This document shows, one piece after another, positions 21,452 through 32,373 of a stretch of 34,485 nt of DNA (positions are counted from its first letter, which is position 1; every line of letters begins with the position of its first letter). A model generated the notes under the pieces. The model did no database searches, had not been told where the DNA came from, and worked only from the letters and a program-made list of their open reading frames with translations. The stretch lies in IMG/VR virus record IMGVR_UViG_3300023179_003795, positions 64,001 to 98,485 of that record; one strand, written 5' to 3'. Made by a program: the position numbers and the translations under genes. This stretch comes from a virus. Taxonomy: Duplodnaviria; Heunggongvirae; Uroviricota; Caudoviricetes.

Positions 21452-22630
21452 TTAGTACATTGTTAATGTAACATCATTAATTTCCTGTTCAGTCACTTTA
21501 GATAAAAATATTAAAGCGTCTTTTTGTGCTTCTTTAGAAATCTTATATCCTTTTTTAGTATATTTAACAATCCTATCCAATAAAGAAGCCGGTGATTTTA
21601 ACCCTTTATTTATGACTAATCTTTTAGATTTAGCGTCAACAAAAAATTTATCATTATGCATTAATTTTTTATTTTTTAAATCCACACCACACATAACACA
21701 AGTGAAGTCAAACTGATTGATTATTGTATCAACACCACCAAAAGTATATCTTGATGGGTTAATAAATTGATATTTTTTATTGTTAATAGTATATGTTATA
21801 GCATTGGTAGTTGAATATTTACTATGACTAATATAATTAAAAACATCATCATTGGATTGGTTTTTCTTTGTTCTATATAAAACATCCATATTACTAATAA
21901 CCTGTTTATAATCGTTTTCATTTGAAAACCATACATCAAAATCATTTATTTTTTCCTTTAATATAATAGATGTTAAAGCACCACCAGCTATTATTGCGTT
22001 ATTATTAACTAATATATCTAACACACTAATATCTGAAATACTATCTATTAGTTTTGACACTATTTCTAAATTATAATGATTCCTTAATATCTCACCATCT
22101 AAATTAATTAAATCAAATATGTTGGAACTATAAGCACAATCCGATCTATCCCAAACCGTTAAATATTTTTGATTGTTTAATTGAACAACAAATTTATTAA
22201 ATTGACTTGTGTATGGTAATTTTTTAGAAAAAACCAAAAAGAAAATATCACCATCCTTCTCATATCTATCCCAAATACTAATATCATCAGAAGCAATACA
22301 CCATTTACTTCCCTTACCGTATAATTTCATAGCATCCGAATTATGAATTCTTTTCACTAAAAAATCTTCATTTTCATAAATTGTTGTAGAACCATTATTT
22401 TTAATAATTTCTTCTTTTTCCGTTTCAGATTCTAAACTATCCACATATGATATAAAATTATCTACGGATTTAAAGTTAAAAATATTACGATATTCGATTG
22501 GTATTTTATCATTTAATCTTTTATGTTTATTACACATAAAAACAAATGAAGGGTGTAAACTACTACCATCATAACAGTTTTTTAACCATTTCTTGTATTT
22601 TGAGTCAATTTGTAAAGAAAGTATATCCAT
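21452..22630 (-). CDS. Two-domain protein with C-terminal nucleotidyltransferase (poly(A) polymerase/CCA-adding head-like)
   Basis: AIIAGGALTS...INDFDVWF, FDFTCVMCG and RIVKYTKKGY motifs; N-terminal YGKGSKWCIA domain. Confidence 0.65.
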   Translation of the reverse strand: MDILSLQIDSKYKKWLKNCYDGSSLHPSFVFMCNKHKRLNDKIPIEYRNIFNFKSVDNFISYVDSLESETEKEEIIKNNGSTTIYENEDFLVKRIHNSDAMKLYGKGSKWCIASDDISIWDRYEKDGDIFFLVFSKKLPYTSQFNKFVVQLNNQKYLTVWDRSDCAYSSNIFDLINLDGEILRNHYNLEIVSKLIDSISDISVLDILVNNNAIIAGGALTSIILKEKINDFDVWFSNENDYKQVISNMDVLYRTKKNQSNDDVFNYISHSKYSTTNAITYTINNKKYQFINPSRYTFGGVDTIINQFDFTCVMCGVDLKNKKLMHNDKFFVDAKSKRLVINKGLKSPASLLDRIVKYTKKGYKISKEAQKDALIFLSKVTEQEINDVTLTMY

Positions 22631-22632
22631 AT

Positions 22633-22800
22633 TTATTTTTTATTATTATAATATAAAGTATCATTAATATTATATTCAGTTGTAGTGAATACCGTGTATT
22701 TAAGTGTGTCATTGCAAGCAGTATATCTATAATAACTACCACAATTTTCTTTGCTCTGTATGACAAAGAATAATATTGAACCGAATAATATTGTTTTCAT
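22633..22800 (-). CDS. Small protein with hydrophobic N-terminus (not in the ORF track)
   Basis: Hand translation MKTILFGSILFFVIQSKENCGSYYRYTACNDTLKYTVFTTTEYNINDTLYYNNKK* (55 aa); the stop lies 2 nt before the next ATG. Confidence 0.6.
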   Translation of the reverse strand: MKTILFGSILFFVIQSKENCGSYYRYTACNDTLKYTVFTTTEYNINDTLYYNNKK

Positions 22801-23354: not shown

Positions 23355-25622
23355 TTAAGAAGTTATTGAAGATTTCATTGCTTCCATTATGTCTGCTGGT
23401 ATTTCACATCCATTAGGTCCACTACAAGATACAGCCCCCATAGTATCCATATTAACATATTCAGGTTGTTTAATTGCTTCATTAAAATCAAAATCTCTTT
23501 GTTTTAATTCACGATTAATTCTAACCCATTTATGATATAAATGTAAATCTTTAATACATAATATCATTTCTTTAACATCACCTTTAAAGAATCTTTTAGC
23601 AAATTGTTTAGCTCTTCTAATCCAATCTTTCTTGATTAAAGCTTCAACTCTTGTTCCTTGTAATTTCAAATCTCTCTTATTTACATAATCACAAGCTTCC
23701 CATAAGTTACCATCAAAAGCGTGTAATCCATCAACAATTAAACCTGAAGCAAAGAAAGCTGCATCATCATATTTATCATATAAATCTTCACCCGATAATA
23801 CCGATGTAAATGGTGCTTGGTTGAAATCTTTATCACCTGTTAAAGGTAAGAATGATACTGCCGCGAATTCAAATCTATTGTTAAATAGATAATCTTCTAC
23901 CACATCATAATCAGAGTAATCTAATTCAACTGTATTAGAAACTGAATGTCTTAAATATGGTTGAACATTTCTTTCGTGATTTGTTCCATACTCAACCCAA
24001 TTGTTTTGGATTGTTTTAACCACTTCTAATTGATTCATACCAACTAAATCTTTCTTGAACTTAGCGTTCTTATTAGCAATTACTGGAATATATGCCACAT
24101 AATCTGTTTTATTAGTACTCCATACAGATTCTTCAATTAAATACGAATGTTCTTCATTTAAGTATTTACCAATACCTGATTGTTTATTGATTTGCATTAC
24201 CCTAAAGTATCTTGGTGCGTGATCTCCGTGACAACCTGAAGGTGATTTTAATAATACCGAAGCATTTCCTGATGGTTTAACACAAGTTGTTCTTGACGCT
24301 GGATTAATACCGATAATTTCAGCCAACTCTTGGTTTACTTTTTTAACTATCTCAGCACCTTTTCTTTGAATTTCAGGATTCATCATAATATGTGGGTTAG
24401 CCATCCAACCTGTAAATGAACAACCTAACAAAGCTTCTCTTCTAAAAATAGCTTCTGTCACTTCACCTAAGTATGGGAAATCAGCGTAACCTGCTTGTAA
24501 TGTTCCTAAGATAGCTAAAGACTCACAAGCTTCATAAAACTTTTCTTCTGTTGTGCACATACCACCATTACCTTCAGTTAAGTTACATCCTTGAAATCCA
24601 CTTAAACCTTCAATTTGAGGGTATAAACCAATTTCAACGCAAGGGTTTGTTACTTGATCTTCATCATCTACAAAATAAAAACCTGGCTCACCAAAATCTT
24701 TAATTGACGTAAATATCTTATTAAATTGTTCTTTTGTTGTGGTGTTTCTGTTGATTACCGCTGAATTATTAGATCTACCTCTTTGTGGATTTTCATAATA
24801 CCAATTACCAACCTTAGCATTCATCATTTCATCATCTTCAGGTGAGAATAAACAAATTGTAGCACTTCTTCTTACACCACCAGATAATACAGCATCCGCC
24901 ATATACATAATGAAGTCATAAGCCATAATAGGTTTCATCACATTAACACCTTGATTTAAGTTTCTTTCAATCAATTCTTCACATTTTAATAATGATTTTC
25001 TTAATCCTTCAGGACCAGGAGCCTTAAATCCACCACTAATCATAGAACCCGCAGGTCTAATTAAACTTAAATCAAATCTAATTTCGTACCCTTGATACTC
25101 AGGAAATGGTGTTTCTTTTCCTTCTTCCACATATGAAGATATTAAAATACCAAAAGTATCACTCCACCCTTCAATAGAATCAGGAACAACAAATGTTTTC
25201 GTTCCTTTAGTTCTTTTTACTAAATTAGGTAATTTACCTATGTGTTTATATTGAACCGAAAATCCAACACCACAACCACATAATAACAAATACATTATTT
25301 CTTGAAAACTTCTAACCCTATCAACATAAGTCGCTGTACAATTATATAACCTCGCATTGTGTTTCATAATTGGATCACCACCAAATTGTAACGCTCTTTG
25401 AGATCCCAATACTAACTTATCTTTATAAGCCCCTTCCGCTTTTTCAAATAATTCTACAAATCTTGGGTTACTTAAAAATTTAGCATACTTTGTTTTATGC
25501 ATGCTCATTACCCTGTTAACCGAATCTTCCCAAGTCTCAGTCCTATTTTCATCATCAATCCATCTCGAATAATCTAAATAATATTTTAAATCACTCGCCA
25601 ATTGAAGTCCATTTTTACTCAT
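23355..25622 (-). CDS. nrdJ: Class II (adenosylcobalamin-dependent) ribonucleotide reductase, monomeric RTPR type
   Basis: RLYNCT, VLSGGVRRSA, TNPCVEI (radical Cys), GCNLTE, CVKPSGNAS and C-terminal SCSGPNGCE redox pair; no small subunit nearby. Confidence 0.85.
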   Translation of the reverse strand: MSKNGLQLASDLKYYLDYSRWIDDENRTETWEDSVNRVMSMHKTKYAKFLSNPRFVELFEKAEGAYKDKLVLGSQRALQFGGDPIMKHNARLYNCTATYVDRVRSFQEIMYLLLCGCGVGFSVQYKHIGKLPNLVKRTKGTKTFVVPDSIEGWSDTFGILISSYVEEGKETPFPEYQGYEIRFDLSLIRPAGSMISGGFKAPGPEGLRKSLLKCEELIERNLNQGVNVMKPIMAYDFIMYMADAVLSGGVRRSATICLFSPEDDEMMNAKVGNWYYENPQRGRSNNSAVINRNTTTKEQFNKIFTSIKDFGEPGFYFVDDEDQVTNPCVEIGLYPQIEGLSGFQGCNLTEGNGGMCTTEEKFYEACESLAILGTLQAGYADFPYLGEVTEAIFRREALLGCSFTGWMANPHIMMNPEIQRKGAEIVKKVNQELAEIIGINPASRTTCVKPSGNASVLLKSPSGCHGDHAPRYFRVMQINKQSGIGKYLNEEHSYLIEESVWSTNKTDYVAYIPVIANKNAKFKKDLVGMNQLEVVKTIQNNWVEYGTNHERNVQPYLRHSVSNTVELDYSDYDVVEDYLFNNRFEFAAVSFLPLTGDKDFNQAPFTSVLSGEDLYDKYDDAAFFASGLIVDGLHAFDGNLWEACDYVNKRDLKLQGTRVEALIKKDWIRRAKQFAKRFFKGDVKEMILCIKDLHLYHKWVRINRELKQRDFDFNEAIKQPEYVNMDTMGAVSCSGPNGCEIPADIMEAMKSSITS

Positions 25623-27691: not shown

Positions 27692-28114
27692 TTACTTTCC
27701 ACTCGAGCCAAATGCTCCATTACCTCTATGAGTTTCACTTAACTCACTCACCTCTTCTAATTCAATAGTTGGGTAAGGTATAACTAATAATTGTCCAATC
27801 TTATCACCAACATCATACACTTCACCATTATCCCAATCCAATTTCTTAAATCTAAACTTGATTTCACCCCTATAACCTGAATCTACAACCCCAACGTGAT
27901 TCGCTAATATTTGTTTTGTTTTACTAATTGATGATCTCGGAAATACTAATCCAACATAACCTTCAGGTATCTCAACAGCAATGTCTGTACCATATTCATA
28001 AAACACTTCACTCTTGACTAATGATGTCGCCACCATATCCATACCAGCATCACCAGGTTTCGCATACTTCGGTGTTACCGCCTTTTCACTTAATTTTTTA
28101 AATCTTACTCTCAT
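27692..28114 (-). CDS. dut: Trimeric dUTPase
   Basis: All five motifs are present: AGMDM, RSSIS, GVVDSGYRGEI, GDKIGQL, RGNGAFGSSG. Confidence 0.95.
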   Translation of the reverse strand: MRVRFKKLSEKAVTPKYAKPGDAGMDMVATSLVKSEVFYEYGTDIAVEIPEGYVGLVFPRSSISKTKQILANHVGVVDSGYRGEIKFRFKKLDWDNGEVYDVGDKIGQLLVIPYPTIELEEVSELSETHRGNGAFGSSGK

Positions 28115-29127
28115 AATATTGCTTTTTTATATAATTTTTTTTCTTTTTCCATGATTATGTAAAATGGTTTAAAAAAATCAATGAATCCCAAATCTGATTT
28201 TGGCATATATGAATAGATACCATCATTTATCATCTGTTTCATTAATACTTTATAATCCCTACCATCAGGATTTAAAACACCATTTATTAATTCATCATCA
28301 ATCCGTTCTTTTACGTTATCAGTTAGCAAAGGTTGGCTTAAATCAATAATCTTTTGATTTGTTATATATAGGTTTTCACCCATCACACCGTGTTTTGATT
28401 TTCCGTTAATGAGATTTCTTAATACTGAAGCATCTCTACCTCTCGATTCAGGTAATAATTGTTTTGCTTTTTCAAATACCCATTCTAATGTTTTTTCTTC
28501 TTTTACTAACTCTGGAAATAACTTAAATAATGTTGCTTCACCCATACCATAAACACCTGCTATGTTATCCGAATTACAACCTGTTAAAACTTTTACTAAA
28601 CATATATTTTTATAATGATAATCTAAATACTTACTCCAATTTTTTTTATTTATGAAATCTCTTTTATCCGCTAAATAAACTTCAGTATTCTCACTAATTG
28701 TTTGTAATATATCCCTATCACCGGTATAAACATATTTATGTTCATTTGGAGTATTTAAACAATAATAAGCAATGGTATCATCAGCCTCAGACCCTTCATC
28801 TTCAAATTGTCTTAAATATAATTCTTCACAATAATATTGGGATTTAATTTTTTGAATGTTAAATTGATAGTCTTTATCAATTTTATTGTTTATCTCTTCT
28901 CGTTGTATTTTGTATTCAGGGTAAAATGTTCTTCTATAATCTTTGGAGTTGGATCCGTCCCAGAAAACTAGCACTTTATCAGGGTATATCTTATTTATCA
29001 TCATCTTTATTGTGATGATAAACTGATATAACCCACCTATCTTATCTTCATTAAAGATAATATTTTTAGCCCCTTTAGTTCCCCTTTTTAATAGATAATT
29101 ACCATCTACCACTAATGTTTTTGTCAT
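28111..29127 (-). CDS. 5'-3' exonuclease/flap endonuclease (T4 RNase H / Pol I N-terminal-like)
   Basis: LVVDGNYL, VFWDG, EADD, TGDRD, and LTGCNSDNIAGVYGMG helix-hairpin-helix motif. Confidence 0.9.
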   Translation of the reverse strand: MTKTLVVDGNYLLKRGTKGAKNIIFNEDKIGGLYQFIITIKMMINKIYPDKVLVFWDGSNSKDYRRTFYPEYKIQREEINNKIDKDYQFNIQKIKSQYYCEELYLRQFEDEGSEADDTIAYYCLNTPNEHKYVYTGDRDILQTISENTEVYLADKRDFINKKNWSKYLDYHYKNICLVKVLTGCNSDNIAGVYGMGEATLFKLFPELVKEEKTLEWVFEKAKQLLPESRGRDASVLRNLINGKSKHGVMGENLYITNQKIIDLSQPLLTDNVKERIDDELINGVLNPDGRDYKVLMKQMINDGIYSYMPKSDLGFIDFFKPFYIIMEKEKKLYKKAIL

Positions 29128-29158: not shown

Positions 29159-29437
29159 TCAAACAATTCTTAAAATACCTTCACCATCTCTCCACACACT
29201 ACCCTCTGTTAATCCTATTGGACTGATAGGTAAATTATTAAACACAATACCACCATTTGTAATTGTATTAGTGTTAATATTATCATAATTTATTTGATTA
29301 TAAATCCTACCATTATTCCCACCATTAACTATATAATTATCAATAGTTAGGTTGGTATTATAGTGTAAATCAATTACACCCGTATTTATATCAATTAAAG
29401 GTTTTTTCCCACCTATTAAATTTTTTAAACTTCTCAT
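29159..29437 (-). CDS. Mini-protein with tail-fibre-like C-terminal motif
   Basis: 92 aa, Asn/Ile-rich, ends LPISPIGLTEGSVWRDGEGILRIV; ATGA-coupled. Confidence 0.55.
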   Translation of the reverse strand: MRSLKNLIGGKKPLIDINTGVIDLHYNTNLTIDNYIVNGGNNGRIYNQINYDNINTNTITNGGIVFNNLPISPIGLTEGSVWRDGEGILRIV

Positions 29438-29673
29438 ACAAATACCCTTCCATTTACATTTGGCATTTGGACAACACCATAATTATTAGGATTTACCTGA
29501 ACGGATGAGTATCTACTACTAATACTCATCACCGGTTCTAATTGAGTCGGTATATATGGAGCAAATACTAAACCAGTATTTAATACGCCAGCATTTCTTA
29601 ATACAGGTTCCCACTCATTGTTTAACACATTTCTTAACTTTCGTTGTGTATTATATTGTTTTATTGTTCTCAT
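29434..29673 (-). CDS. Mini-protein resembling joined N- and C-terminal segments of gp23-type major capsid protein
   Basis: NEWEPVLRNAGVL and GLVFAPYIP...EPVMSISSRY...VNP compared with recalled T4 gp23 NKWKPLLEGEGL and GIYYAPYV...QPVMGFKTRY...INP. Confidence 0.6.
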   Translation of the reverse strand: MRTIKQYNTQRKLRNVLNNEWEPVLRNAGVLNTGLVFAPYIPTQLEPVMSISSRYSSVQVNPNNYGVVQMPNVNGRVFV

Positions 29674-29677
29674 TACT

Positions 29678-29800
29678 ATGAACTACCCAACCACTAAAGA
29701 TGGTTTAGGCTTCCTACTTCTATGAGGGTCTAATGACTTACTCTCCGTAGGCATTACTTCAGGTTGATCCAACCTTAGTGCGTTTAACGCAAATCTTTTT
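29678..29800 (-). ncRNA. Putative omegaRNA scaffold overlapping the tnpB 3' end
   Basis: Successive hairpins TGCGT/ACGCA, AGGTTG/CAACCT, CCTAC...GTAGG enclosing GTC/GAC, and AACCA/TGGTT ending at the right end; the 5' boundary is approximate. Confidence 0.55.
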
Positions 29801-30870
29801 ATATTATTAGCCGCCAATACATCTCTTTCATGTGTTGTCCCACAACTATTACAAGTCCATCCCCTATCTTTTAATGTGAGGTCATTATTTATTACACCAC
29901 ATGAACACATCTTAGAACTAGACTCAAATCTACCTATTTTTAATATATTCACCCCATTCCATTCGGACTTATATTGTAATATATTTAAAAACATCCCCCA
30001 AGATACATCATTTATTGATCTGGCTAATTTATGGTTTTTAACCATTCCTTTTATATTTAAATCTTCTATACAAATAGTTTGGTTTTCACTAACTAGTTTA
30101 GAAGATATTTTATGAATATTATCTATTCTCTGATTGCTTATTTTTTCATGTATTTTAGCAACCTTTATTCTTTGTTTATTTCTATTATTAGAACCTTTTA
30201 CTTTCCTACTTAATTTTCTTTGCTCTCTTTTTAATTTCTTTAATGATTTATTTAAGAACTTATGATTTTCATATTTAACACCATTAGAAGTAATAATAAA
30301 ATCCTTTATACCTAAATCAATACCTATTGTTGTTTCTTCAGTTATACTATTTTTAGGTTTATTATTTTCATTTGTTTCACATAATATACTCACAAAGTAT
30401 TTACCGGTGGGTGTTTTACTTATTGTCGCTTGTCTTATTTCACCATTATGAGGTCTATCTATTTTAATGTTAATACCTTCTTTAAACTTAGGTATTATTA
30501 ATTTATTATCTTTTAATATAATAGATTGTGGTATCTCAAAACTATGATAATTATCACGCTTTGATTTAAACTTTGGAAAACTATTTTGTTTTCTGAAAAA
30601 ATTAGTAAAAGCAATATCTAAATGTCTATTAGATGCTTGTAATGCTTGTGAATTAACTTCTTTTAACCATGAATATTCTTCTTGTTTTTTTAATTCAGTT
30701 AATTGTTTATCTAAGTCAAATTTAGTTAATCTTTGTTTTTCATTCTGATACGCTTTAATTTTCTTACCCAAAGCCCAATTATAGATAAATCTAACAGATC
30801 CAAAGTGTTTATTTAACAATTCGGATTGGTTAATATTAGGGTATAATCTATATTTATATGATTTTAACAT
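29683..30870 (-). CDS. tnpB: RNA-guided endonuclease TnpB
   Basis: N-terminal YKYRLYPN HTH; RuvC residues IGIDLG, ICIEDL and HERDVLAANNI; zinc ribbon CSCG...CNSCG. Confidence 0.95.
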   Translation of the reverse strand: MLKSYKYRLYPNINQSELLNKHFGSVRFIYNWALGKKIKAYQNEKQRLTKFDLDKQLTELKKQEEYSWLKEVNSQALQASNRHLDIAFTNFFRKQNSFPKFKSKRDNYHSFEIPQSIILKDNKLIIPKFKEGINIKIDRPHNGEIRQATISKTPTGKYFVSILCETNENNKPKNSITEETTIGIDLGIKDFIITSNGVKYENHKFLNKSLKKLKREQRKLSRKVKGSNNRNKQRIKVAKIHEKISNQRIDNIHKISSKLVSENQTICIEDLNIKGMVKNHKLARSINDVSWGMFLNILQYKSEWNGVNILKIGRFESSSKMCSCGVINNDLTLKDRGWTCNSCGTTHERDVLAANNIKRFALNALRLDQPEVMPTESKSLDPHRSRKPKPSLVVG

Positions 30871-30876
30871 TCTATA

Positions 30877-30884
30877 TATAAATA
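30877..30884 (-). promoter_or_regulatory. TATTTATA motif upstream of tnpB
   Basis: TATTTATA-tataga-ATG, the same motif and spacing as in front of structural genes. Confidence 0.55.
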
Positions 30885-30928
30885 GTTAAAAATTATAAAA
30901 AGTACTTGTTTTAATTAAAAAAAATTCA

Positions 30929-31174
30929 TTAATGTAAATCATTATTTAATAGGTTTCTAATAATATTATTATCAATATTTCCACTTAATTCTTCACTTAA
31001 CAACCTTGTTAATTCAGCCTCAGCATCTATATTATGAAACGCAGAAATATCTTGAACCATTTCAGGTGTCCAAATCACTCTAATTGATCGAGCACCAACA
31101 TTAACATTAACAGTTCTTAAATTTAATTTAACTTTCCGTTTGTTTTCAATAATGTATTGATTTATAGTTCTCAT
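30929..31174 (-). CDS. Mini-protein containing the spine-helix segment of gp23-type major capsid protein
   Basis: ARSIRVIWTPEMVQDISAFHNIDAEAELTRLLSEEL...ID compared with recalled T4 gp23 SRQLKAAYSIELAQDLRAVHGMDADAELSGILATEI...IN. Confidence 0.75.
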   Translation of the reverse strand: MRTINQYIIENKRKVKLNLRTVNVNVGARSIRVIWTPEMVQDISAFHNIDAEAELTRLLSEELSGNIDNNIIRNLLNNDLH

Positions 31175-32373
31175 TTCAATACCGATCTATAAAATTCCAT
31201 CCTATTTTTTGATACAAAATCTAAGTTATATTTTTCTTTTACAGTTTCATATAACGCTTCACCCATATCTTTTATTTGTTCTGGGTTATTAATTAATTTC
31301 TTAATTGTTTTATGCCAATCTTTATGACTTCTTTTTTGTTCAATTAAAAACCCATTCTTACCATCAATAATATCTTCTGAATATGGTTCAATATGTGACG
31401 CAATTAACGCTTTTTTATGGAAACCCGCTTCCATTACTTTCAAGGATGATTTAACCCTATTAAACTCAGTTTCCACTAATGGTGCTAACGATATATCAAA
31501 GTAGTTATAGTTTGTAGCATATTTGTTAATTGGTAATGTCCATCTTCTTCTATATGGTTCATTCTTATCATCAAAATTACCTTGAGTAAATCTTTCTAAG
31601 TAATTCTTATATTGTGGTGAAATTATATTATAATTATCCGTTACAATCTTTTCATAATCATACCATACAGTTTCGTGTGGTTTAATTGGTTCTTGCATTT
31701 GCTCACCTGTTTGAGCATTTATGGTTGTTTTTGTCCCCCTTAAATCAAAACCACATAACACAAATTGTATTTTACTTATTACATTATTATCACCTGATAA
31801 AACATTTGTTACACCGTGTAATAATTGTAAATCTTTTAAATGTGATGAACCACCTAAATAACCTACACCAATTTTATCGTTTTCTTCTCTATTTGGAATA
31901 AATTGTCTATCTCTTGGATTAATAGCGTTAGGGAATATTACCACATTCTTATTATATTGTCTTATCTTAGAAGCAAAATATTCATTTGTTGTTGTAACAT
32001 AATCAAAAATCTTTAAGTTCTCAACTATTTTTTTATCTATTTGTTGAAATTTTACTATTTGATATAATCCGTGTGATGGATCAACCAACCAATGATCATC
32101 AATATCACCAATAATTATTTGATTTGGATTTTGTTGTTTTAATCTTTTATATATTTCAGGAGTAGCCCCAATATCAGGTGTTAAACTTCTATGACAGAAT
32201 ATAATATTATAATCTTTATACTTTGTAATATCTGTAAAGTCAGATATATCAATAATATCTATATGGATATCATTCTGAAACATTTCTTGTAGATGGACAT
32301 GAGGCCATCTCATTCTGTAAGCACCTACACCTGCCCCATCAATTGTTGTAACCAACATTTTAATTTTACTCAT
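31171..32373 (-). CDS. Glycosyltransferase, GT-B fold
   Basis: DIDDHW, YVTTTNEYFA, VVIFPNAI, GYLGGSSHLKDL and DISLAPL...KSSLKVMEAG...ALIAS motifs. Confidence 0.85.
   Translation of the reverse strand: MSKIKMLVTTIDGAGVGAYRMRWPHVHLQEMFQNDIHIDIIDISDFTDITKYKDYNIIFCHRSLTPDIGATPEIYKRLKQQNPNQIIIGDIDDHWLVDPSHGLYQIVKFQQIDKKIVENLKIFDYVTTTNEYFASKIRQYNKNVVIFPNAINPRDRQFIPNREENDKIGVGYLGGSSHLKDLQLLHGVTNVLSGDNNVISKIQFVLCGFDLRGTKTTINAQTGEQMQEPIKPHETVWYDYEKIVTDNYNIISPQYKNYLERFTQGNFDDKNEPYRRRWTLPINKYATNYNYFDISLAPLVETEFNRVKSSLKVMEAGFHKKALIASHIEPYSEDIIDGKNGFLIEQKRSHKDWHKTIKKLINNPEQIKDMGEALYETVKEKYNLDFVSKNRMEFYRSVLK

What the first reader, a model, noticed from the sequence alone, without database searches (positions are those of the whole stretch)
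30929..31174. 81-aa protein carrying the HK97-fold spine-helix region of a gp23-type capsid protein
About 50 residues (WTPEMVQDISAFHNIDAEAELTRLLSEEL) match the most conserved gp23 motif (ELAQDLxAxHGxDAxAEL) behind an unrelated basic leader. This is the clearest member of the fragment cassette.
Basis: partly seen in the sequence, partly recalled or inferred. Interest (0 to 1): 0.8.

Follow-up and report, generated by a model that had tools for sequence, protein, structure and literature searches.

The report
Capsid-protein fragment mini-gene in jumbo phage
An uncultured giant T4-like phage keeps a small, selected gene that encodes only one conserved edge piece (E-loop hairpin plus spine helix) of its head-shell protein; it belongs to a large family of such mini-genes that I could not find described, and its function is untested.

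Summary
ORF 30929-31174 (minus strand, 81 aa) matches Pfam Gp23 at E 1e-14 (residues 12-77 = profile 131-196 of 376). It matches T4 gp23 residues 257-308 in solved structures at E 1e-8. It aligns at 53% identity to residues 332-393 of full-length capsid proteins of related jumbo phages.

The "unrelated basic leader" is mostly the gp23 E-loop hairpin. Only the first 10-13 residues (MRTINQY...) are a leader, and the neighbouring mini-genes share it.

It is not a broken or misassembled capsid gene. Many independent contigs carry the same 79-81 aa ORF at the same place, with open frames. dN/dS is 0.1-0.3 in the motif, against 0.04-0.08 in flanking genes.

It is gene A of a three-gene cassette. Gene B carries a gp23 N-terminal helix plus C-terminal strands, and gene C is fibre-like. 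In this genome a 1.25-kb TnpB element sits exactly at the A-stop/B-start overlap. Natural A+B and A+C fusions exist.

At least 73 of the 150 best cluster representatives are similar mini-proteins that lack most of the capsid protein. Function is inferred only: most likely a mimic of the capsid protein's peripheral edge. No full-length capsid gene was found on any fragment-bearing contig, and all of these are incomplete. This scan noted the same kind of gene in other genomes before.

The parts
30929..31174 (-). Mini-gene A (81 aa), the finding itself: leader MRTINQYIIEN, then gp23-type E-loop hairpin, short helix and spine helix
   Evidence: ORF. Pfam Gp23 E 1.1e-14. Clade capsid profile E 2.4e-22. 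T4 gp23 residues 257-308 E 1.3e-8. 47 short homologues of 44-142 aa.
30944..31141 (-). Codons 12-77 of gene A, the part that matches the Gp23 profile (131-196 of 376)
   Evidence: The AlphaFold2 model has low confidence (pLDDT 57.9) but shows strands at 20-26 and 29-35 and helices at 37-47 and 51-79, the order expected for E-loop plus spine helix.
29676..30925 (-). TnpB-only IS200/IS605-type element (about 1250 bp) inserted exactly at the A-stop/B-start overlap, with TAATGA at both junctions. The tnpB ORF is 29683-30870 (395 aa).
   Evidence: Pfam OrfB_IS605, Cas12f1-like_TNB and HTH_OrfB_IS605. Empty sites in L092, L100 and L101 read TTACA[C/T]TAATGAGAACAATAAAA.
29434..29673 (-). Mini-gene B (79 aa): leader MRTIKQY, a helix resembling the capsid protein's N-terminal helix, then the C-terminal strands (APYIP...SRY...VNP)
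   Evidence: Clade capsid profile E 5.6e-4, positions 543-593. Blastp to the G001 capsid protein residues 513-569, E 1.9e-5. Abuts gene A directly in relatives without TnpB.
29159..29437 (-). Mini-gene C (92 aa): leader MRSLKNL, low-complexity middle, invariant tail GLTEGSVWRDGEGILRIV. Its ATGA start overlaps the stop of gene B.
   Evidence: No Pfam or PHROG hit. Only a weak lead to a phage tail-like trimerisation family. Fused to an A-type piece in P0173.
31150..31180 (-). First copy of the 31-nt direct repeat over the start of gene A; 81% identical to the copy at gene B
   Evidence: Repeat family D2.
29649..29679 (-). Second copy of the 31-nt direct repeat, over the start of gene B
   Evidence: Repeat family D2.
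31171..32373 (-). Upstream glycosyltransferase gene (400 aa), translationally coupled to gene A
   Evidence: Pfam Glycos_transf_1 and PHROG 7162. dN/dS 0.04-0.08.
28111..29127 (-). Downstream 5'-3' exonuclease gene, followed by dUTPase, DnaB-like helicase and ribonucleotide reductase. This is the replication-type operon that holds the cassette.
   Evidence: Same gene order in L002, L004 and L092.

Best explanation
Gene A is a real, selected accessory gene descended from a gp23-type major capsid protein. It keeps only the E-loop hairpin, the following short helix and the spine helix, behind a 10-13 residue leader that marks this lineage's mini-genes.

Together with genes B and C it forms a small cassette inside a replication-type operon. 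The axial (A) domain and the insertion domain of the capsid protein are absent.

Inferred mechanism: the protein, alone or paired with B, imitates the peripheral edge of the capsid protein (the P-domain and E-loop side that touches neighbouring capsomers and lines the shell). It would bind what that edge binds, most likely capsid protein subunits themselves. It would so cap or hold them, tuning or blocking shell assembly of the phage's own or a co-infecting relative's capsid protein.

Shown here: origin, anatomy, conservation, selection and modular shuffling. Inferred only: binding, target and effect.
For: Origin from the capsid protein:
-.

A real gene, not debris:
- 47 short homologues at 48-99% identity, most of 79-81 aa.
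- Same position on independent contigs.
- dN/dS is 0.11-0.3 in the motif and 0.3-0.9 elsewhere, against 0.04-0.08 in neighbouring genes.
- A 38-row clade of MRTINQY-type genes lies outside the tight clade of real capsid proteins.

Specific to the capsid protein:
- 11 of 23 small-ORF-to-large-ORF matches in five genomes hit the capsid protein, all in fragment-bearing genomes.

Which parts are kept:
- The N-terminal helix, the VQPM strand, the E-loop plus spine helix and the C-terminal strands are the recurring pieces. The large insertion region (about profile positions 120-340) was never matched.

The pieces work together:
- Natural A+B fusions of 116 and 114 aa.
- An A+C fusion, P0173.
- 158-199 aa forms that hold two or three pieces, P0177, P0110 and P0097.

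Breadth:
- 1670 cluster representatives at E <= 0.001. At least 73 of the best 150 are 220 aa or shorter, start with Met and are less than 75% capsid-like.
Against: - No binding, expression or virion data exist.
- The AlphaFold2 model of gene A is of low confidence (pLDDT 57.9).
- No full-length capsid gene was found on any contig that carries fragments, though all are only 7-50% complete. The protease-scaffold-capsid block that follows the portal gene in relative G001 is missing at that place in this genome. The presumed target in the same virus is therefore not shown here.
- Real capsid proteins of this clade are nearly invariant in this region, so a blocker of a rival's shell would also hit the phage's own.
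- dN/dS outside the motif is high.
- One B-type gene carries a tract copied from a real capsid gene. Gene conversion could therefore partly explain why the motif stays capsid-like.
Confidence: 0.35

Rival explanations
1. Immune decoy. The fragments are made early with the replication genes. They occupy host abortive-infection sensors that recognise conserved capsid-protein surfaces, without switching them on, so that the late flood of capsid protein goes unnoticed.
For: - The cassette lies in a replication and nucleotide-metabolism operon and is translationally coupled to it.
- The pieces kept are the most conserved parts of the capsid protein, which sensors would be expected to target.
- The genes change fast and are shuffled, as conflict genes often are.
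- From established knowledge: the Gol peptide of T4 gp23 activates the Lit protease, and CapRel senses a capsid protein.
Against: - In the known cases a capsid fragment activates the sensor rather than blocking it.
- No sensor is known for this host, and no defence context was found.
- Early timing is inferred from gene order only. The promoter scans were uninformative.
Confidence: 0.2
2. Near-neutral relics. The mini-genes are leftovers of capsid-gene duplicates that travel with mobile elements. They stay open because they are short and coupled to essential neighbours, and gene conversion from the real capsid gene keeps them capsid-like.
For: - A 111-nt tract in the B-type gene of L103 is 92% identical to real capsid genes.
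- Homing endonuclease genes and TnpB crowd these loci.
- dN/dS outside the motif is 0.3-0.9.
- Related jumbo phages G001 and G002 do without such genes.
Against: - At 28% G+C an 81-codon frame stays open by chance about once in a thousand (my estimate from base composition), yet all homologues are open.
- The MRTINQY-type genes form an old clade of their own, well apart from real capsid proteins.
- The family is shared by lineages whose core proteins are only about 40% identical.
- Fragments come almost only from the capsid protein, not from other large genes.
Confidence: 0.18
3. Packaged head proteins. The shared N-terminal leader works like the T4 capsid-targeting sequence. It would carry A, B and C into the prohead core, be cut off by the prohead protease after Glu10, and the proteins would be delivered with the DNA.
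For: - Leader MRTINQYIIE against T4 IPII/IPIII MKTYQEFIAE: 4 of 10 residues identical, with I8-x-E10 at the same positions as the T4 cleavage site.
- [IVLF]-x-E at positions 8-10 is kept in most A-type genes.
- The leader is restricted to small genes: all five such starts in G006 are mini-genes, and three of the four in this genome.
- T4 internal proteins share only the targeting sequence (PMC3012670).
Against: - B-type and C-type leaders lack the Glu.
- The leader also resembles the capsid protein's own N-terminus: T4 gp23 MTIKTKAELLNKW against G006 MRTLKNSNLLIKKW. It may therefore simply be inherited.
- The genes sit in a replication operon.
Confidence: 0.12
4. DNA-level role. The fragments serve as silent donor or acceptor cassettes for recombination with the capsid gene, for repair after nuclease attack or to vary it.
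For: A conversion tract from a capsid gene into a mini-gene is seen. Nuclease genes abound in these genomes.
Against: - DNA identity of gene A to any capsid gene is only about 81-83% over 66-74 nt.
- Selection acts at the protein level.
- The pieces cover the invariant parts of the capsid protein, not its variable parts.
Confidence: 0.07

Closest known systems
T4 major capsid protein gp23 and vertex protein gp24 (Pfam PF07068, HK97 fold; PDB 6UZC, 5VF3, 7VS5, 1YUE)
   Same: Clear homology over the E-loop hairpin, short helix and spine helix. It corresponds to T4 gp23 residues 257-308, and the motif W-x-P-E-x-x-Q-D...H-x-x-D-A-E-x-E-L is conserved.
   Different: Only 81 aa against 520-640. There is no N-arm, A domain, insertion domain or C-terminal strands. 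It is not in the head module but in a replication operon, and it evolves much faster than real capsid proteins. It cannot be a shell subunit.
T4 internal proteins IPI, IPII and IPIII with the capsid-targeting sequence
   Same: Small, fast-changing, scattered genes that share only a short N-terminal leader. The leader is similar in pattern, with I-x-E at positions 8-10 (PMC3012670).
   Different: The body is a capsid-protein fragment. The Glu is absent in B and C. The genome has another candidate targeting leader. Packaging is not shown.
MicroProteins: small dominant-negative paralogues that keep one interaction surface of a larger protein (established knowledge, for example Id proteins and plant LITTLE ZIPPER)
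   Same: A short protein that keeps a single interaction module of a large multi-domain, oligomer-forming parent.
   Different: Those are eukaryotic regulators of transcription factors. Here the parent is a virus shell protein, and the interaction is only inferred.
Capsid-redirecting proteins of phage satellites (P4 Sid, SaPI CpmB, PICI Ccm, PLE TcaP; established knowledge)
   Same: Small proteins that act on a helper phage's capsid protein or imitate a partner of it to change assembly. Ccm is itself an HK97-fold homologue.
   Different: Those are encoded by satellites, are full domains or scaffolds, and are not fragments of the capsid protein carried by the phage itself.
Gol peptide of T4 gp23, which activates the Lit protease (established knowledge)
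   Same: A short piece of gp23 with biological activity of its own.
   Different: Gol is a region of the full protein around the VQPM strand, not a separate gene, and it triggers host suicide. Gene A covers another region.

Membership tests
Gp23 / HK97-fold major capsid protein (PF07068) | Sequence match to the family profile above the curated threshold | tested here: met
   55.1 bits against a cut-off of 24.4, E 1.1e-14; T4 gp23 in the PDB, E 1.3e-8.
Gp23 / HK97-fold major capsid protein (PF07068) | Complete fold: N-arm, E-loop, P domain, A domain | tested here: not met
   Only profile positions 131-196 of 376 (361-423 of 606 in the clade profile) are present in an 81-aa protein. It is a derivative of the family, not a capsid subunit.
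Gp23 / HK97-fold major capsid protein (PF07068) | Position in the head morphogenesis module (portal, protease, scaffold, capsid) | tested here: not met
   It lies between glycosyltransferase and exonuclease genes, about 80 kb from the portal and terminase genes of the same contig.
T4-type internal proteins with capsid-targeting sequence | N-terminal consensus like MKTYQEFIAE with an [LI]-x-E cleavage site | tested here: inconclusive
   MRTINQYIIE: 4 of 10 identical, with I-I-E at positions 8-10. B and C lack the Glu. A ten-residue match picked after the fact is weak evidence.
T4-type internal proteins with capsid-targeting sequence | Presence in the virion and removal of the leader by the prohead protease | not testable with these tools
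   Needs virion proteomics.
IS200/IS605 TnpB element (the insert next to the gene, not the gene itself) | TnpB with HTH, OrfB/RuvC and zinc-ribbon (TNB) domains; discrete insertion relative to empty sites | tested here: met
   Three Pfam domains at E 1e-18 to 1e-27. A 1250-bp insert is absent from L092, L100 and L101. No TnpA gene. No guide-RNA family or group I intron was found in Rfam.

The most novel reading that the evidence does not exclude
Giant T4-like phages run a so far undescribed system of tagged mini-proteins. Each is a copy of one conserved surface of a virion protein, and they act as molecular mimics: as decoys for host sensors of capsid protein, or as weapons against the capsid assembly of rival phages. 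Gene A is one unit of that system. The shared leaders and tails (MRTINQY here; FKFFRG-type or KHKL tails elsewhere) would be handles for a common partner.
Probability: 0.3. Interest if true: 0.85.

Novelty: new variant of a known kind. Interest (0 to 1): 0.65.

Why it matters
Capsid proteins are treated as single, indivisible shell subunits. These phages instead keep, under selection, dozens of families of 80-200 aa genes holding only conserved peripheral pieces of the capsid protein.

Three full-text literature searches found no description of them. If they bind capsid protein or its sensors, they would be a new class of viral regulator, decoy or inter-phage weapon, and a natural source of assembly inhibitors.

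They also matter in practice. They carry a Pfam Gp23 hit, so they can be mistaken for broken capsid genes, and they can inflate counts in surveys that use the capsid gene (g23) as a marker.

Tried and rejected
**Split capsid gene restored by splicing (IStron or group I intron with TnpB): rejected.**
- Rfam finds no intron or other RNA family, at gathering or at E <= 1.
- Relatives without TnpB still have A and B as two separate ORFs whose stop and start overlap.
- The whole space between the glycosyltransferase and exonuclease genes is under 800 nt, too small for a capsid gene.

**Stop-codon recoding that would split a capsid gene: rejected.** Long ORFs read through under table 11 across the whole window.

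**Misassembly: rejected.** The same arrangement occurs on many contigs from different samples.

**Capsid protein replaced by another protein family: rejected.** The PHROG 19197 protein, shared by the fragment-bearing genomes G000 and G003 (it did not appear on the incomplete G006 contig) and absent from G001 and G002, turned out to be DruA-like, not capsid-like.

**Complex prediction of A with B: no verdict.** The score was 0.00. It is listed here only and counts neither for nor against binding.

**Searches that led nowhere.**
- A full-length capsid gene in the same genome or on other fragment-bearing contigs was not found.
- A word search with gene B for longer relatives found none.
- Five further capsid-bearing contigs hold no fragments.
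- P0053-type loci gave no long contigs.
- The 287-kb ENA contig of L002 could not be searched.
- Promoter, terminator and late-box scans were at chance level.
- No extra domain was found in the fusion partners of the module.
- A mixed A+B alignment (A4) misaligned the two types, so I did not fold it.

Full report
**Setting.** The window is the last 34.5 kb of a 98.5-kb viral contig, G000. CheckV rates it about 30% complete, which implies a genome near 300 kb; G+C is 28%. No cultured phage is close: the helicase is under 30% identical to anything in GenBank phages. The contig carries a T4-type portal and large terminase. Its relatives G001 (287 kb) and G002 (334 kb, rated complete) have full-length gp23-type capsid proteins of 579 and 555 aa. 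Core proteins of these relatives are 34-55% identical to those of G000.

**The observation.** ORF 30929-31174 on the minus strand encodes 81 aa.
- It matches Pfam Gp23 at E 1.1e-14 (residues 12-77 = profile 131-196 of 376).
- It matches PHROG 138 at E 6e-13.
- It matches a profile I built from 60 full-length capsid proteins of this clade at E 2.4e-22 (positions 361-423 of 606).
- It matches T4 gp23 residues 257-308 among solved structures at E 1.3e-8.

The pairwise alignment to the G001 capsid protein covers residues 14-75 at 53% identity. It shows that KLNLRTVNVNV-GAR-SIRVIW corresponds to both strands and the turn of the E-loop hairpin. Only MRTINQYIIEN(KR) lies outside the match. An AlphaFold2 model has low confidence (pLDDT 57.9). 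It still gives the expected order: strands 20-26 and 29-35, then helices 37-47 and 51-79.

**Not a broken capsid gene.**
- The ORF's ATG overlaps the stop of a glycosyltransferase gene.
- Downstream come TnpB, a 79-aa ORF (B), a 92-aa ORF (C), then exonuclease, dUTPase, helicase and ribonucleotide reductase genes.
- In relatives without TnpB (L092, L100, L101), genes A, B and C abut each other in under 800 nt. There is no room for a capsid gene.
- Forty-seven short homologues (44-142 aa, most of 79-81 aa, 48-99% identical) exist in public data.
- The same gene order recurs on independent contigs.
- Rfam finds no intron, and table 11 reads the window's long genes through.

**The cassette.**
- Gene B begins MRTIKQY. 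It ends with the C-terminal strands APYIP...SRY...VNP (clade profile E 5.6e-4; blastp E 1.9e-5).
- Gene C begins MRSLKNL and ends in an invariant GLTEGSVWRDGEGILRIV tail. It has no family match and only a weak fibre-like lead.
- The starts of A and B share a 31-nt direct repeat, 81% identical.
- In G006, a close relative, all five ORFs that begin MR[TS][IL][KN] are mini-genes. Two further ones lie 70 kb away: an 84-aa gene with the VQPM strand, and a 123-aa gene with the N-terminal region plus a degenerate spine helix.
- G000 has four such starts: A, B, C and a 108-aa ORF with no capsid match.
- G003, a more distant relative, has six capsid-fragment ORFs in two clusters, in scrambled order.

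**Specificity and breadth.** Of 23 matches between small ORFs (170 aa or less) and large ORFs (250 aa or more) in five genomes, 11 are to the capsid protein. All 11 lie in G000, G003 or G006.

A profile of the A family finds 1670 cluster representatives at E <= 0.001 among 1.84 billion. Of the best 150:
- 15 are full-length capsid proteins;
- at least 73 are 220 aa or shorter, start with Met, and have less than 75% of their length matching the capsid profile.

These mini-proteins combine the same few pieces: N-terminal region, VQPM strand, E-loop plus spine helix, and C-terminal strands. The order is colinear in some and permuted in others. The large insertion region (about profile positions 120-340) was never matched. 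Many carry short tags such as FKFFRG at both ends. Natural fusions A+B (P0025 and L106) and A+C (P0173) show that the cassette's modules are used together.

**Selection and history.** dN/dS (Nei-Gojobori) is 0.04-0.08 for the flanking glycosyltransferase and exonuclease genes. It is 0.11-0.3 for the 29-codon motif of gene A and 0.3-0.9 for the rest of A. It is 0.40-0.95 for B and 0.34-0.92 for C.

In a quick tree of the motif region, real capsid proteins form one tight clade (support 97). The MRTINQY-type genes form their own clade (support 96). Other mini-families branch separately, and only P0045 and P0046 nest among real capsid proteins. The tree rests on few columns, so these are rough statements. 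The mini-genes are therefore old, evolve faster than the parent, and keep the core motif.

One B-type gene (L103) contains a 111-nt tract 92% identical to real capsid genes on other contigs. Gene conversion from a full capsid gene therefore does occur.

**What is missing.** No contig that carries fragments holds a full-length capsid gene, but all are only 7-50% complete. In G001 the order is terminase, portal, a 250-aa gene, protease, scaffold, capsid. In G000 the first three are present, but unrelated genes follow. The capsid gene must lie in the unsequenced part, or this lineage is unusual. Earlier notes of this scan state that in other genomes such mini-genes coexist with the phage's own capsid gene. 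I could not check that.

**TnpB.** A 1250-bp TnpB-only element (29676-30925) sits exactly in the TTAATGA overlap of A's stop and B's start, with TAATGA at both junctions. It leaves both ORFs intact but uncouples them. Between this window and L004 the element's two ends and gene A are 98-100% identical, its middle part 91-95%, and the surrounding genes 90-96%. Genes B and C are only 84-88% identical.

**Mechanism.** The evidence supports a protein-level role tied to the capsid protein's conserved periphery. I commit, at modest confidence, to a mimic that binds capsid subunits or their partners at the P-domain and E-loop edge. The rivals are an immune decoy, neutral relics refreshed by conversion, packaged head proteins addressed by the leader, and DNA-level donor cassettes.

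The resemblance of the leader to the T4 capsid-targeting sequence is suggestive. It is weakened by a second, better candidate leader in the same genome (note e1-1832659). It is also weakened by its likeness to a gp23-type N-terminus.

**Literature.** Three full-text searches found no paper describing such genes.

Noticed in passing
window 29676-30925: A TnpB-only IS200/IS605-type element is inserted precisely at the stop/start overlap of two mini-genes, with TAATGA at both junctions. Its two ends plus gene A are 98-100% identical to the copy on contig L004, its middle part 91-95%, and the flanking genes 90-96%. A CTATTTATA box lies 7 nt before its ATG.
   Followed up: partly
L103:4058-4168: The B-type mini-gene of another contig carries a 111-nt tract that is 92% identical to full-length capsid genes of L079 and L070. 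This is a gene-conversion tract from a real capsid gene.
   Followed up: partly
G000:C1:9400-17100 (L163): Terminase, portal and a 247-aa gene are in the T4-like order. The protease-scaffold-capsid block that follows in relative G001 is replaced by peptidase-like, PD-(D/E)XK and PcfJ-like genes.
   Followed up: partly
G000:C1:29975-30301 (L164:9975-10301, + strand): A fourth ORF of this genome (108 aa) starts with the mini-gene leader (MRTLKKQY) but shows no capsid similarity.
   Followed up: no
proteins P0090, P0102, P0111, P0135, P0150, P0181 and others: Many other capsid-fragment mini-proteins carry the same short motif (FKFFRG, FKFGR or FKLLKG) at both their N- and C-termini. This could be a tag or an effect of tandem arrays.
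   Followed up: no
L118 and L119 (G003:C1:41649-42270 and 72708-75168): Six capsid-fragment ORFs lie in two clusters in scrambled order. Several end in a common KHKL, KFKL or HKFI tail. The second cluster flanks an SbcD-like gene, as do two mini-genes in G006 (24807-25419).
   Followed up: partly
L002:14618-17389: The ribonucleotide reductase gene of a relative carries an intein with a LAGLIDADG endonuclease (923 aa). The window's copy (23355-25622, 755 aa) has none.
   Followed up: no
G000:C1:27518-28693 (L164:7518-8693): A 391-aa phage protein matches the Druantia DruA family (E 6e-13). It is shared with G003 but absent from G001 and G002.
   Followed up: no
G000:C1:8978-9451, 21673-22752, 30520-31389: A second shared leader, MKI[IL]ITE[EQ]Q followed by KKKLFIPRR, heads three ORFs. 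LFIPR occurs in seven ORFs of this genome and in none of G001, G002, G003 or G006.
   Followed up: partly
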